A DNA stretch of 64,000 nt, taken from assembly GCF_035594765.1 (NCBI RefSeq), contig NC_085841.1, forward strand, positions 52,373,636-52,437,635, read 5' to 3'. Shown here one piece after another: positions 36,401-42,400 of the stretch (position 1 is the first letter of the stretch; each line of letters opens with the position of its first letter). The position numbers are program-made. Source of the DNA: Anolis carolinensis. Lineage: Eukaryota.

Positions 36401-39400
36401 TTCCTCAGTTCTGTTATCCTTCCTTATCCTCCAGATCCTCCTGATATATATATACTCCCTCCAGACATATTTTCCCTCCATATTTTAAGGACGGTTTACA
36501 GATACTTTCTACATTACTTGTGAAAAACTGCAATTTGAAATTCTAAACATTATTGTTACTGCAGAATTGGTTCTTATTTAAGAGGAAATTTCAGTGACCA
36601 CCTCCTAATGGCCACCATTTTATATTTTCCTTAACAGTATTAAGAGAGAGAGTTTTGTCCTCCCCAAGTTAGTATATTTGGAGACTCAGCTATTTGAACA
36701 ATGTGTCTAGGATTTTCCACCCTGTATGTTAGTCTTCCTTTCTGCAGTTCTTCAAGCATGCTTTCATTAAATTATAACTTTTCTAAATGAAAAGTCCCAG
36801 CCTTTTACATCTCTCTTTATTTGGACACATTTTCCATTCCTGTAATCCATTTGTTGAAACCCTTCTATTTCTATGATAGTGTGATCATAATTAAACTCAG
36901 CCTTGCATGTATAACAGTGATTAATATAATAAGCTATAATGTTGTCTGTCTTCTCCCATGAGTGGTTACTGTTAATTTAAATCTCTAGCTTCAGAAAGTA
37001 CAGCATTGTATAGCATTAAAACAGAAACAAAACCCACACAATATATTTTGGCATCACTGGAGTCAAGACATTCCCTCTTTCCTTCAGTTATTTTTGGACT
37101 GCAACCACTTGATACACTAATTGAGTGGAAAAGAACAACTACATTTCTCAACAAATGAAATGTTTAGTATTGATATACATTCAATGAAAAAGGTGGCTAA
37201 GCAAATTTGCTTCTAAATATGTCTGGCTAGACTTCCAGTTAGCAGAGAAGCTGTGAAATTTCAAACACTGGAGGGTTTTTTTGGATGGAATCCTAAAGTA
37301 TGGTTTAATATTATGTGAATGAGACTAATGAAGCCTATGGTTGCCAGGTTTCAAAATAGCAATAACTCAAAGCAAATTTTATGATGCATAGGGCTGATAA
37401 TTAGGAAGTGGTGGTAAAAAAAGTCTTTTAGGTGCGACAGGCAGTTTTAAATAGCAGGCCTCTGTGCTGAGTTCTTCCTTCTCTGGTATGAATCATGCAA
37501 CTAAGGCTGGATTAACACTGCCACATAATCCAGTTTCAGAATGCAGATTAATCTCATTGACCTGGATTATATGGCAGCGCGGATTCATATAATCCAGTTC
37601 AATGCAGTTAATCTGAATTCTGAAACTGAATTATATGGCAGTGTAAATCCAGCCTTAGTTGCATGATTCTTCGATTCAAGTTACGCATCTGCACTTTGTG
37701 CATCTGAGTTATTTCTAATCACCTGATGGTCATCTGTGCATATAAATCTGTTTGCTGAAGTAACTTTTCATGCATCCTATTAAGGGGATCGATCCCCCAA
37801 TTTATGTGATAATAAAATTGAGTGACCTTTAAGGTGCCACAAGACAATGGTTCTAAACTATTAAACCGAGTTCTTCCTTCTCTGGCCTTGCTATTACCAT
37901 GTAGGACATGAAGCTATTCCACAGCAGTTGCACAAACACAAAATATTACTGAAAAAAACTGGCTTGGGAATAGCAAGGGCAAAAGAAGAGAAGAGGCAGT
38001 GATTCTTGCCTACTGACAAAGAACTGAATGGCCTCTTGTGGGTTGGCAGCTACTGACAGGTTTTTTTCCATCAATAGTGGAGGACAGATTAATTATGGGT
38101 AGGAGTTAGAGCAGTAACAGGATGTGTATGGCATCATGCAATAGGGACCATTAATAAAGGTGCTGGTCCTGCTTCACTGCCAATTTGCCTCCCTCATGTG
38201 GTAACTTATAATGTTACAAAGAAGTTTTTTTTAGAAATTACGGTGTACATTCTCTTCATGAACCTTGCCTAACAATTAGCAAATCATTAGCTGTACAACA
38301 TAGAGAAGGCTCATTAGGAAATCTTGCAACGAGGGGGGATTTGAAACCCAGCACTTTAGCTTCTACATTATGGTGATTCTGATAATTACTTATTGTTACA
38401 CTAACAAGTAACAAAATTACCAGGCATTATGCTATTTTACCAAAAAATAGTTTTGCGGAACAGGTAATGTTGTTATTTGTAATGTGCTAATTCTAAGATG
38501 GAGCCCCCAGAGGTGCAGTGGGTTAAACTGTTGAACCGCTGAACTTGTTTACCAAAAGGTCGGTAGTTTGAATCTCGCTTTTAGCCCCAGCTTCTGCCAA
38601 CCTAGCAGAATGTGAGTAGATCAATAGGTACCGCTCCAATGGGAAGGTAATGGTGCTAGATGCAGTCATGCTGGCCACATGACCTTGAAGGTGTCTACGG
38701 AAAACTCTGGGTCTTTGTCTTAGAAATTGAGATGAGCACATACCCCCAGAGTTGGACACGACTGGACTTAATTTCAGGGGAAAACCTTTACCTTTACCTA
38801 CTTAATTATAAGATCTTTTTTCACACATAATGTTAAACTGTAGTTAATTGCAAATGGAAACCATTGTCTTCCTTGCTTTCAATATGTGAGCAAAAGTTTC
38901 TGCAGTAAACTATTATCTACCATTCTGTGAATAAGCCTGGATGATCCTATGTAACAACATCACTAAATGTAGCCACTGACTCCTAGCAATGGAATTGTGA
39001 TCTTGCACATTAATGGTTGTAAACTTCTTTGCTTCAGGAAATGCCAAAGTTGAGAGCTACTATAGCACCCATAACACCTGCATGCAGCATGCAAGCCAGA
39101 TGTTTAGGGACAGGGCTTTGCTCATAATCTATTGATCTAACCAACATCCCAGCTCCAATCACTGCTGCAAAGGTTGTACCTATTGCCAACCAGGAACCCC
39201 TCATCATTCAACTTGACTCTTCTGGGGGGTCCCCTGCTCATCTGAGCTGCTTGGTATACAGCAAGAATCGTAGGTGGCCTGTCTACTGTGGCCATGTGTG
39301 GACCAAGTGAGAAGTTTCTGAACATGGGAGCATCTTTGGGGGTTGGCTTTGGCTTCGTACTTGCATCACCGGTTGGATCCATGTTCTTTCCTCTGACATC

Positions 39401-42400
39401 TGCCCTTGGTGCAGGCCTTTATTCTGTGGCTGTTTATGGTGAATTGGTTCTTTTTAGTTTGTTCCTGCTCTACAATACTCAGAAAGTTGTGAAACGTGCA
39501 GAAACTCTACCAGTGTATGGTGTAGGACTGCAAAAGTATGACCCCATCAACTCATGTATGGGCATTATGTGGATACTCTCAACATCTTCATCAGGGTGGC
39601 CACCATGCTTGCTGGTGGGGGTGGCATGAAGAAGAAGTAGAGGGCGGCATCTTCTGGCAGGCTGTAATGATGGGTCATCAAACACTTTAGCTTGTCTGCT
39701 TGGTGCGTAATAGTGAATAAAACTATTGTGTACAAGCCAAAAAAAAAGGGGGGGGGGAATGCCAAAGTTGGGGGGTGAACATTATTCCCAATTTTTTCTA
39801 ATATCTATTTACAAGATAAAAAGCACCTTAGCCTTTAGGCATACATCTCCAGCCAGTAAATGTTTGGATTCCCTGCTTCATAAACATCTACAACTTTGAT
39901 TTGAAGGGCTTATAAATGTGCCACAAGCAAGGTAGAAATATATTAATGCTGTTATATAAATGAATGTCATATATTTATGTTGTCCTTTTGTGATTTTTAA
40001 CAAAATATATAGTCTCCTGTAGGCGACTTAGAAGAGCACTCCTAGGCTGAAATGTCTTGGGCTTTGAACATCTTTTAGCATCCTAAAACATATCCTATTT
40101 TTTCCATTTTTGCTTTTCATATAGCCAAAGAGCCAAGCAACCAGGATTGTGAAGGTATGCTTTCTGTGTGATAATTTTTCAAATGCTTTTGTCAGTCATG
40201 GAGACTCACTGGGTTACTTTGGGCAAATCACACATTTTCAGCCCCTGAAAACCCTGTAATTGCATTGCCTTAGGGTCCCCATATATCGGAAATGACACTG
40301 AGCCACACAACAACAAAAGCAAATAACACTTGCAAAATTATCACTCCAGTTTTGTTTCAGCCATCAGTGAAACAGTATTAGTTAAAAATATGCAAAGGAT
40401 TTTTTAAGGTATGCATATCCATGTCAATCCTCCACCTTCAACATTTTGGACTGAAGAGAACTGACACTTGGCACAATGAGACAGGCTAGTTTTACAATAG
40501 AGATATTTTGATATTTACCATTAAACCATGTCACCCATTTTGTTCAGTCTTGAGCAGGTGTTAATCTGTTTTGATAAAGAAGCTGAGGATTTGGCTTTTC
40601 TCCTAATCAGAGCCATAGGCAGCCATGAAGCTATTCCAGCCTTTTCCTTCGTAAATTGGGTATGAATATTTAAGAGGAAACACTGCCATCTCTTTTTACT
40701 GCAATCCAAGCCAATGCATGTCTCCCTTGGCAATGCTAGTATCCCTCTTTTTTAAAATCACAGTAACATGGAGGGGACTTGCTCATTTTACTATTTAAAA
40801 GGATAGGGAATTCAGAACAGACCAGGAGGAAAGGAAGGATAAGTTGCTTACTTTGCCCTTGTGTCTTAATGACTGTACAGATACTATAACCCTTCAGTGG
40901 TCTTGCTTGGCAAGGAGAGTCCTGATTAATCATCTCACATTTTCAGATGCTTTAAAAATGCCCCAGTTCCTCTTTCCTCCTCCCATTTCCCTCACCTTGT
41001 TCTCAGCTCACTTTAATTTGCTGCAATCTAGGTACTAACTGCAAAAGTAGTTTGTTCTCATTTTATTCATGATGCCAATGGCCTCAATTCTAGCACTGTA
41101 ACTTCACACCTTTACAGGATTTGCAGGATGTTTTTATGTTTGGTTTCTTTATTTTTATTTATTTATTAACCATCTGTTTATTCCCTCTCAGCTGTAATGG
41201 CTCCCAAAGTGCTATGCAACAGATAGAAATGCTTTAAAAGCAAATAAAACCAATAAAAACAAGTAAAGCAATCCAAAAGCTAATCCTGATTTTAGAAACC
41301 ATAGATCATGCAAAATAATATATACTTCCCAAAATTTCTTCTGATTAAAATTGGGACATCATGACAAAGCAGTATCAAAGTGTGCTCCAGATGGCAAACC
41401 TAATGACGAAAAACACCTGAGTCTGTTGAGAAGGGCAAGACTCTGCTGCCTCTTTTCCCCACACAAAATTAAATGAATCAAACTATTTTTGCTCTTTGAT
41501 TTCAATTTATAGGAATTGAAGTAAGCTGAAGTCAAAGGGAGATAAGTGATAAGTGGAGACAGAAACTGGGACCCCTTCTATATTGCTATATAATCCCGAT
41601 TATCAGATTGGACAATCCACATTATCTGCTTTGAAATGAGTTATATTAGTCTACACCAGGGGTCCCCAAACTAAGGCCTGGGGGCCGGATGCGGTCCATC
41701 GAAGCCATTTATCTGGCCCCCACGGCACAAGGGCAGAAGGGGGTTGGGCTAAATGACCCAAGGGGTCTCTTCTCTTACAACCATTATTATTATTGACACA
41801 ACGACGTTGTATGACACAGCAAACAAGATAGGTATGCTGGATTTCATTTCACAAAATCACAAGTCGAACACTTCCCAAGTGTCTAGGACTGTGTGATGTA
41901 TTTTCGGATGATGCGTGCAGATCCCAGTAAGGTGGCCTTTTGCAGTTGGCAGATCGTGATTTTGTCAATGTCTATTGTTTCCAAATGCCGGCTGAGATCT
42001 TTTGGCACGGCACCCACTGTGCCCATCACCACCGGGACCACCTGCACTGGTTTCTGCCAGAGTCTTTGAAGTTCAATCTTGAGGTCCTGATAGCAGCTGA
42101 GTTTTTCCTGTTGTTTTTCATCTATGCGGCTGTTACCTGGTATGGCAACATCAATGATCCAAACCTTGTTCTTTTCCACAACTGTGATGTCTGGTGTGTT
42201 GTGTTCCAGAACTTTGTCAGTCTGGATTCGGAAGTCCCACAGTATCTTTGCGTGTTCATTTTCCACAACCTTTGCAGGTTTGTGATCCCACCAGTTCTTT
42301 ACTGCAGGGAGGTGGTACTTGAGGCATAAGTTCCAATGAATCATTTGGGCCACATAGTTGTGCCTCTGTTTGTAGTCTGTCTGTGCAATTTTCTTACAGC

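What the first reader, a model, noticed from the sequence alone, without database searches (positions are those of the whole stretch)
39040..39770. GHITM retrocopy with a near-seamless 5' inversion (twin priming) in a squamate
Seen: within one 13-bp TSD the first ~160 bp are GHITM coding sequence in antisense (MMRGSW..VMGAIVA). The rest resumes in sense at almost the next residue (LTLLGGPLL) and runs through stop, 3' UTR, AATAAA and A-tail. Known: this is the twin-priming signature of L1-mediated retrotransposition, best documented in mammals. Inference: a lizard LINE mobilised a host mRNA in trans with twin priming. The target (GA/AATG) fits the mammalian TT/AAAA consensus poorly. The ORF track does not show the inverted GHITM frame.
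Basis: partly seen in the sequence, partly recalled or inferred. Interest (0 to 1): 0.7.

Follow-up and report, generated by a model that had tools for sequence, protein, structure and literature searches.

The report
Half-inverted GHITM retrocopy in a lizard
This is a dead, intronless copy of the lizard's GHITM gene whose front 155 bases were pasted in backwards during insertion, a structure well known from human jumping-gene activity but not yet found described in lizards.

Summary
A 705-bp insert (39053-39757) lies between two exact 13-bp repeats, AATGCCAAAGTTG. Its first 155 bp encode GHITM residues 156-206 on the minus strand. After 4 extra bases, the plus strand continues from residue 208 through the stop codon, a 98-nt 3' UTR, AATAAA and an A9 tail. 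If codon 207 is read as CTC (Pro to Leu by one transition), no residue is missing.

The copy is dead. It lacks the first 155 codons and carries an in-frame TGA, a 1-nt deletion and about 13 private amino-acid changes. Its nearest relatives are squamate GHITMs (84-90% identity), and it groups with Phrynosoma in a tree.

The best reading is a processed pseudogene made by a poly(A)-dependent LINE, most likely L1, with twin priming. In humans 13-21% of new processed pseudogenes show this structure. My searches found no lizard case in print.

Several things stay open. The nick site does not fit the L1 consensus. A G10 run follows the A tail. The window holds no L1. I could not reach the parent mRNA or an empty site. 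I rate it a new member of a known kind, of modest interest.

The parts
39040..39052 (.). 5' target-site duplication AATGCCAAAGTTG. It extends to 39037 if one mismatch is allowed. The last G (39052) may also be the third base of GHITM codon 207.
39053..39207 (-). Inverted, internally primed GHITM cDNA. It covers residues 156-206, plus codon 207 read as CTC at 39052-39054. The mRNA-3' end abuts the 5' TSD.
   Evidence: 46/51 and 47/51 identical, E about 1e-23
39208..39211 (+). Four extra bases, TCAA, at the inversion junction that fit no GHITM codon. Together with 39212-39214 they form TCAACTT, the reverse complement of AAGTTGA at 39047-39053.
   Evidence: read directly from the sequence
39212..39640 (+). 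Sense GHITM coding part, residue 208 to the stop codon TAG at 39638-39640.
   Evidence: 105/118 identical, E=4e-61; Bax1-I
39243..39245 (+). In-frame TGA where all squamate orthologues compared have Arg. The change CGA>TGA is inferred.
39564..39569 (+). Site of a 1-nt deletion (ATTATG where Ile-Tyr-Val/Met is expected). The frame shifts from +3 to +2.
39641..39738 (+). 3' UTR of 98 nt, with AATAAA at 39716-39721 and a CA cleavage site at 39738-39739.
39739..39747 (+). Poly(A) tail remnant, A9.
39748..39757 (+). G10 run between the tail and the 3' TSD. Unexplained.
39758..39770 (.). 3' target-site duplication AATGCCAAAGTTG, followed by GGGGG.

Best explanation
This is a non-functional processed pseudogene of the squamate GHITM gene. 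A poly(A)-dependent LINE, most likely L1, made it by target-primed reverse transcription with twin priming.

**Shown**
- One 705-bp insert lies between 13-bp TSDs.
- Its 3' part is spliced-type GHITM coding sequence with 3' UTR, AATAAA and an A tail.
- Its 5' 155 bp are the directly preceding mRNA stretch in reverse orientation, with the junction at codon 207.

**Inferred**
1. The bottom strand was nicked at the left edge of the TSD and primed cDNA 1 on the poly(A) tail.
2. The top strand was nicked 13 or more bp downstream.
3. The freed 3' overhang (...AAAGTTG, followed by a G run in the target) annealed inside the same mRNA at the C-rich GCU-CCN (Ala-Pro207) site. It primed cDNA 2 towards the mRNA 5' end, stopping at codon 156.
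4. cDNA 1 stopped where cDNA 2 had started.
5. The two cDNA 3' ends were joined by end joining, with 4 filler bases (TCAA).

The copy lacked a promoter and its first 155 codons on arrival. It has since decayed neutrally.
For: **Anatomy.** The TSD is 13/13 and flush with both ends of the insert. The antisense piece covers residues 156-206 and the sense piece residues 208 to the end, each with E of 1e-23 or lower. The minus strand reads GTA GCT CTC at 39060-39052. This is one transition away from Val-Ala-Pro, so zero codons are lost.

**No duplication.** Neither piece nor flank matches anything else in the window.

**mRNA 3' end.** AATAAA lies 17 nt before the A tail.

**Same age for both pieces.** Private changes are 2/52 in the inverted piece and 11/141 in the sense part (Fisher p=0.52).

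**Decay.** There is an in-frame TGA and a 1-nt deletion.

**Literature (passages read)**
- Inverted rearrangements occur in 9/42 somatic human processed pseudogenes, with no duplication and 1-4 bp of microhomology (PMC3996531), and in 3/23 polymorphic ones (PMC12016303).
- In 132/287 inverted human L1s the two cDNA ends lie within 20 bp of each other.
- Inverted L1 inserts carry 10-20 bp TSDs (PMC4245944).
- Lizard L1s end in AATAAA plus poly(A) (PMC5381506).
- 404 retrocopies were counted in Anolis (PMC3136929).
Against: - The first-strand nick site (bottom strand CATT/TC) does not match the L1 consensus TTTT/AA.
- A G10 run lies between the A9 tail and the 3' TSD, which simple priming on poly(A) does not predict.
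- The junction holds 4 bases that fit no GHITM codon. Codon 207 also needs one extra substitution to fit.
- Microhomology cannot be scored without the parent's nucleotide sequence.
- No L1 domain was found in the window: 162 ORFs were scanned, and 31 of the 181 ORFs of 70 aa or more were not scanned. The three LINEs present are of other kinds.
- In cell culture, 5' inversion was seen only with human L1 in human cells, apart from one Nimb-2_DR insert in chicken cells. Human L1 in chicken DT40 cells gave none (PMC4245944). The event is therefore not a given in a sauropsid.
- No empty site and no parent locus could be examined.
Confidence: 0.82

Rival explanations
1. An ordinary 5'-truncated GHITM retrocopy inserted in sense orientation. 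Later its first 155 bp were inverted by a DNA-level event, for example template switching at the 7-nt inverted repeat AAGTTGA/TCAACTT.
For: A 7-nt inverted repeat does bracket the inverted segment, at 39047-39053 and 39208-39214. My post hoc estimate of its chance is about 0.3%.
Against: One breakpoint would have to fall within 0-1 nt of the insert's 5' boundary. Undoing the inversion at the repeat gives Ala-Leu-Asn-Leu-Thr, one codon more than the Ala-Pro-Leu-Thr of all 22 orthologues fetched. Extra mutations are therefore needed either way. Twin priming produces exactly this layout in 13-31% of human L1-type insertions.
Confidence: 0.06
2. The layout arose by twin priming or a similar two-primer event, but the reverse transcriptase came from a non-L1 LINE or from an endonuclease-independent insertion at a pre-existing break.
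For: The nick site does not match the L1 consensus. The tail is A9 followed by G10. No L1 is seen in the window, whereas other LINE clades are. One Nimb-2_DR (I-clade) insert with a 5' inversion and TSDs of about 12 bp was seen in chicken cells (PMC4245944).
Against: From the Ohshima review (PMC3747384, passages) and my recall, CR1-, L2- and RTE-type LINEs need their own 3' ends. The RLE-type LINE in the window ends in (AAT)n, not poly(A). Endonuclease-independent inserts usually lack TSDs (recalled). In humans about 36% of L1-type insertions also lack a canonical cut site (5578/8673 had one, PMC12016303).
Confidence: 0.1
3. Assembly or sequencing artefact: the 155-bp segment was flipped by the assembler, and the G10 run is a homopolymer error.
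For: The G10 directly after A9 looks odd, and A6G6 occurs only once in the window. The window holds other long G or C runs, G14 and C15 at 54987-55223 and G11 at 29498-29508.
Against: A 155-bp flip is shorter than a read. Its ends coincide with a TSD border and with a codon-exact breakpoint, which an artefact would not respect. The nearest gap (N run 51154-51302) is 11 kb away. The flanks are unique in the window.
Confidence: 0.02

Closest known systems
5'-inverted processed pseudogenes of human (L1-mediated, twin priming). Sources: Cooke et al. 2014, PMC3996531, and PMC12016303, passages read. Kojima & Okada 2009 was seen only as an entry in the reference list of PMC3747384.
   Same: A single inversion inside the cDNA, within one TSD pair. 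No duplicated sequence. 5' truncation, a poly(A) tail and a TSD of 10-20 bp. The inverted cDNA starts next to where the sense cDNA ends.
   Different: The host is a squamate. The nick site is not TTTT/A. A G10 run follows the A tail. There are 4 filler bases at the inversion junction, where the human cases are reported to have 1-4 bp of microhomology.
5'-inverted L1 insertions (twin priming). Ostertag & Kazazian 2001 is not held in the library and is recalled, as summarised in PMC2912911 and PMC4245944.
   Same: The same two-primer geometry. The TSD length falls in the 10-20 bp class tied to inversions. Close junctions are common (132/287 within 20 bp).
   Different: The template is a host mRNA acting in trans, not the LINE's own RNA. 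The LINE responsible is not identified here.
Retrocopies of Anolis carolinensis (404 counted; Chen et al. 2011, PMC3136929, passages read).
   Same: An intronless copy of a host gene in a lizard genome, decayed like the 187 retropseudogenes in that count.
   Different: In the passages I read, that survey reports no TSDs, tails or inversions.

Membership tests
Processed pseudogene (LINE-mediated retrocopy) | Contiguous copy of the mature mRNA without introns | tested here: inconclusive
   193 codons (156 to the end) align without gaps in two pieces. The parent gene's exon map could not be fetched, so I did not show that exon junctions are crossed.
Processed pseudogene (LINE-mediated retrocopy) | 3' UTR, polyadenylation signal and poly(A) tail at the mRNA end | tested here: met
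   The stop codon is followed by a 98-nt UTR. AATAAA lies 17 nt before A9.
Processed pseudogene (LINE-mediated retrocopy) | Target-site duplications flush with the insert | tested here: met
   13/13 exact, or 16 nt with one mismatch.
Processed pseudogene (LINE-mediated retrocopy) | Parent gene at another locus | not testable with these tools
   tblastn found no other GHITM piece in the window. No vertebrate genome collection was available.
Twin-primed (5'-inverted) insertion | Inverted 5' piece and sense 3' piece inside one TSD pair, with the inverted piece's mRNA-3' end next to the 5' TSD | tested here: met
   Minus strand 39207->39055 covers residues 156-206. Residue 206/207 abuts the TSD at 39052/39053.
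Twin-primed (5'-inverted) insertion | The two pieces are adjacent on the mRNA, with a small gap or overlap and no large duplication | tested here: met
   Residues 206 (207 if CTC is counted) and 208 meet at the junction. There are no self-matches.
Twin-primed (5'-inverted) insertion | Microhomology at the 5' junction and at the inversion junction | tested here: inconclusive
   If Pro207 is CCC, then 1-3 nt (G/GGG of the target against CCC) are possible at the 5' junction. The inversion junction has a 4-nt filler. The parent nucleotide sequence is needed.
Twin-primed (5'-inverted) insertion | Inversion present from the time of insertion (empty site in relatives, no uninverted orthologue) | not testable with these tools
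   No related squamate genomes could be searched.
L1-mediated insertion | First-strand nick at a TTTT/AA-like site | tested here: not met
   The bottom strand reads GGCATT/TCCTG. With the 16-nt TSD it reads ATTTCC/TGAAG.
L1-mediated insertion | TSD of about 10-20 bp and a poly(A) tail | tested here: met
   TSD of 13-16 bp and an A9 tail. The tail is followed by an atypical G10.
L1-mediated insertion | Active L1 in the same genome at the time | not testable with these tools
   The 162 ORFs scanned showed no L1 domain. Lizard L1s with AATAAA and poly(A) are described in PMC5381506.

The most novel reading that the evidence does not exclude
This may be a first sequence-level example that twin priming works in a squamate germ line. 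It would involve a lizard poly(A)-type LINE acting in trans on a host mRNA, at a target that does not fit the mammalian L1 nick consensus. That would mean 5' inversion is an old property of the amniote L1 machinery and its host repair factors. It would argue against 5' inversion being a peculiarity of human L1 in human cells, as cell-culture work suggested (PMC4245944). The G10 after the A tail, and the filler that mirrors the primer end, could then mark lizard-specific steps: non-templated C addition at the start of reverse transcription, and snap-back templated joining of the two cDNAs.
Probability: 0.25. Interest if true: 0.45.

Novelty: new member of a known kind. Interest (0 to 1): 0.3.

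Why it matters
On its own this is one dead pseudogene with no likely function. Its value is as a clean, codon-exact natural example of a 5'-inverted retrocopy outside mammals. Experiments reported that 5' inversion depends on both the LINE and the host, and found none for human L1 in chicken cells. A lizard case suggests that sauropsid genomes can be mined for such events, to ask how old twin priming is and which host factors it needs. It also warns annotators that retrocopy finders working on a single strand will miss or truncate such copies.

Tried and rejected
- **Pfam on the short pieces.** The 52-aa inverted piece and the 24-aa tail gave no hit. They are too short, so tblastn with orthologues was used instead.
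- **First three rows of the protein search.** P0001-P0003 had the best E-values but only 57-63% identity. They are 574-770-aa insect or unnamed proteins, and I did not use them.
- **Insertion into a repeat?** The flanks match nothing else in the window, so this was rejected.
- **Inverted duplication?** Rejected, because the two pieces do not overlap.
- **L1 in the window.** The 162 ORFs scanned gave only RVT_1 and one zf-RVT hit, at three non-L1 LINE loci. 31 of the 181 ORFs of 70 aa or more were left unscanned.
- **First count of private residues.** It was flawed by a wrong frame and by two aberrant orthologue records. I redid it, dropping Phrynosoma and Phrynocephalus for the inverted piece only.
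- **Alternative splicing as a source of the extra bases at codon 207.** Rejected by inspection, because the extra bases end in neither AG nor GT.
- **Literature search.** It was swamped by unrelated lizard papers, so I replaced it.
- **Papers not held.** Novick 2009 and Ostertag & Kazazian 2001 are not in the library.
- **Atlas look-up of the neighbouring LINE.** It was unavailable.
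Full report
**What is there.** The stretch 39040-39770 reads, on the plus strand:
- AATGCCAAAGTTG, 39040-39052;
- 155 bp that encode GHITM on the minus strand, 39053-39207;
- four bases, TCAA, 39208-39211;
- GHITM coding sequence on the plus strand, 39212-39640, ending in TAG;
- a 98-nt 3' UTR with AATAAA at 39716-39721;
- A9, 39739-39747;
- G10, 39748-39757;
- AATGCCAAAGTTG again, 39758-39770.

The repeat finder reports the repeat as 16 nt with one mismatch, 39037-39052 against 39755-39770. 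It found only one other direct family in the 1001 bp examined, and that one is weaker.

**Identity of the insert.** The sense piece 39246-39629 matches Pfam Bax1-I (PF01027, E=2.3e-11, 44.3 bits, cut-off 34.1). The two short pieces gave no Pfam hit. A search of the large protein set with that sense piece alone, restricted to longer proteins, gave 489 proteins at E<=1e-10 among 1147 candidates.

By identity the best matches are squamate GHITMs:
- Phrynosoma 90%, Elgaria 89%;
- Pogona, Phrynocephalus and Lacerta 86%;
- other lizards 84-85%.

Tuatara reaches 79% and birds 79-80%, while snakes lie lower, at 72-75%. Three long proteins of 574-770 aa topped the E-value list at only 57-63% identity and were set aside.

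I fetched 22 named non-human GHITM proteins. I searched and aligned the two GHITM pieces separately and never joined them into one reading. The window's N run (51154-51302) was left alone.

**Mapping the breakpoint.** tblastn of 7 lepidosaur GHITMs against the window gave the following, in Elgaria numbering:

| Residues | Position and strand | Identity | E-value |
|---|---|---|---|
| 156-206 | 39207->39055, minus | 46/51 (47/51 to Lacerta) | 1e-23 (4e-24) |
| 208-325 | 39213-39566, plus | 105/118 | 4e-61 |
| 324-341 | 39560-39613, plus, another frame | 16/18 | 2e-4 |

No other GHITM piece exists in the window; all remaining hits had E>0.9.

Only codon 207 lies between the pieces. All 22 orthologues have Pro there. 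The minus strand reads GTA GCT CTC at 39060-39052. This is Val-Ala-Leu, one C>T transition from Val-Ala-Pro if the parent codon is CCC. On that reading three things follow:
- the inverted cDNA includes codon 207, and its last base is shared with the last G of the TSD;
- the sense cDNA starts at the C before TTG (39212);
- nothing is lost.

This step is inference, because I could not obtain the parent's nucleotide sequence.

**State of the copy.** It lacks codons 1-155 and any 5' UTR. It has an in-frame TGA at 39243-39245 where all squamates compared have Arg. It has a 1-nt deletion at about 39565-39567 that shifts the frame.

Private residues, found in none of the squamate orthologues compared, number 2/52 in the inverted piece and 11/141 in the sense part. 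The 2 include the codon-207 Pro>Leu change, read by eye because the script misaligned that last column. The two rates do not differ (Fisher p=0.52), so the pieces are probably of the same age. For the inverted piece I dropped the Phrynosoma and Phrynocephalus records, which are aberrant in that stretch.

About 7% private amino-acid change means the insertion is not recent. I give no date.

**Host.** In a maximum-likelihood tree of 23 rows, the sense piece groups with Phrynosoma (ultrafast bootstrap 92, SH-aLRT 58). The rows were the sense piece 39246-39566 plus the last 200 residues of 22 orthologues. The non-squamate rows form a clade of their own (94/94). The motif Tyr-Val-Asp after the frameshift is shared with Phrynosoma and with the python Liasis. 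'Squamate' is supported; a pleurodont iguanian is likely but only moderately supported.

**Surroundings.** The flanks (38400-39052 and 39758-40400) and the insert match nothing else in the window at E<0.01. Insert GC is 45-48% against 37-39% in the flanks.

The window carries three LINE loci with reverse-transcriptase domains:
- 22.0-23.1 kb, minus strand;
- 41.9-45.1 kb, minus strand;
- 53.7-55.7 kb, plus strand.

None shows an L1-type domain. I scanned 162 ORFs; 31 of the 181 ORFs of 70 aa or more were not scanned. The 41.9-45.1 kb element ends in (AAT)4 and lies between (AAT)n tracts, so it is not a poly(A)-type LINE.

**Mechanism.** The layout is the one expected from twin priming. The bottom-strand nick at the left TSD edge primes cDNA 1 on the poly(A) tail. 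The top-strand 3' overhang, created 13 or more bp downstream, anneals inside the same mRNA and primes cDNA 2 towards the 5' end. cDNA 1 stops where cDNA 2 began, and the two cDNA ends are then joined.

The anatomy is shown; each mechanistic step is inferred. The target continues with a G run after the TSD (GTTGGGGGG, 39767-39775). The priming site is the C-rich Ala-Pro codon pair. Up to 3 nt of G:C microhomology is therefore possible, if Pro207 is CCC and position 39053 has since mutated G>A.

**Published comparisons (passages read)**
- 9/42 somatic human processed pseudogenes carry one internal inversion, without duplication and with 1-4 bp of microhomology (PMC3996531).
- 3/23 polymorphic human processed pseudogenes are 5'-inverted. 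In 132/287 inverted L1s the two cDNA ends lie within 20 bp of each other (PMC12016303).
- About 31% of human- and chimpanzee-specific L1 insertions are 5'-inverted. 95% of those show microhomology at the 5' junction, and only 3.9% have extra nucleotides there (PMC2912911).
- Inverted L1 inserts have TSDs of 10-20 bp (PMC4245944).

**What does not fit**
1. The nick site (bottom strand GGCATT/TCCTG) is unlike TTTT/AA. In humans only 5578 of 8673 insertions had a canonical site, so this is unusual but not disqualifying.
2. A G10 run sits between A9 and the 3' TSD, and A6G6 occurs nowhere else in the window. Options I could not separate are non-templated C addition at the start of reverse transcription, a G-tailed mRNA, slippage from the GG of a 16-nt TSD, and a homopolymer error.
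3. The junction filler TCAA, together with the next three bases, forms TCAACTT. This is the reverse complement of AAGTTGA at the 5' border (39047-39053). My post hoc chance estimate is about 0.3%. It may be chance, or a templated snap-back filler made during end joining.
4. L1 itself is not seen in the window.

**Rivals**
- A later DNA inversion would need a breakpoint within 0-1 nt of the insert border. Undoing it at the 7-nt repeat gives one codon too many (Ala-Leu-Asn-Leu-Thr against Ala-Pro-Leu-Thr).
- A misassembly would not respect a TSD border and a codon boundary, and the nearest gap is 11 kb away.
- A non-L1 enzyme cannot be excluded. One Nimb-2_DR insert with an inversion was seen in chicken cells. 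However, from PMC3747384 and my recall, the stringent-type LINEs of lizards need their own 3' ends, while lizard L1s end in AATAAA plus poly(A) (PMC5381506).

**Novelty.** Retrocopies are known in lizards: 404 were counted in Anolis (PMC3136929). Twin priming is textbook for mammals. My searches for a lizard case gave the following.

| Search terms | Papers found | Result |
|---|---|---|
| 'twin priming' | 106 (40 listed) | every listed title concerns mammals, human disease or general methods |
| 'twin priming' + 'lizard' | 3 | in the passages read, none reports a lizard case; two cite the 2001 paper only in passing |
| 'twin priming' + 'zebrafish' | 10 | the relevant one is PMC4245944 |
| '5 inversion' + 'lizard' | 1 | unrelated |

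The Anolis L1 population paper PMC3787681 has no word beginning with 'inver'.

PMC4245944 states that 5' inversion was found only with human L1 in human cells, apart from one Nimb-2_DR insert. Human L1 in chicken DT40 cells gave none. A natural squamate example is therefore mildly informative.

**Left unchecked**
- The parent GHITM mRNA and its exon map.
- The empty site in related species.
- Raw reads.
- A genome-wide survey of inversions.

No vertebrate genome collection was available.

**Verdict.** This is an ordinary kind of event, a twin-primed processed pseudogene, in a host where I found no earlier description, and two small oddities remain to explain.

Noticed in passing
window 41783-45450, minus strand: A near-intact LINE with two long ORFs of 461 and 632 aa. 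It has RVT_1 plus a zinc-binding motif and no AP-endonuclease domain. It ends in (AAT)4 and lies between (AAT)n tracts that belong to tails of a SINE-like repeat. This looks like a microsatellite-targeting, restriction-like-endonuclease LINE of the R4/Dong type. The clade name is recalled, not tested.
   Followed up: partly
window 54966-55259: The CR1-like reverse-transcriptase ORF (53.7-55.7 kb, plus strand) is interrupted by a 274-bp insert at 54976-55249. The insert is flanked by a 10-bp direct repeat, ACTGTGTCCA. It carries a G14 run near one end and a C15 run near the other, with similar inverted termini, so it resembles a MITE.
   Followed up: partly
window 29491-29508: T7 is directly followed by G11, a second A/T run abutting a long G run in this window. 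I saw no link to the retrocopy.
   Followed up: no
window 45450-45850: At least two tandem-like copies of a repeat of about 100 bp (GGTTGGAAGA...CCTCAATGTT), each followed by a long (AAT)n/(AATAGT)n tract. A further partial copy lies at about 41660-41780.
   Followed up: no
window 51154-51302: An N run of 149 bases.
   Followed up: no
window 9.7-10.2 kb, 12.8-13.2 kb, 33.7-34.4 kb: GC-rich stretches with long open frames on both strands and no Pfam match. They could be CpG-island-like sequence or an unclassified repeat.
   Followed up: no
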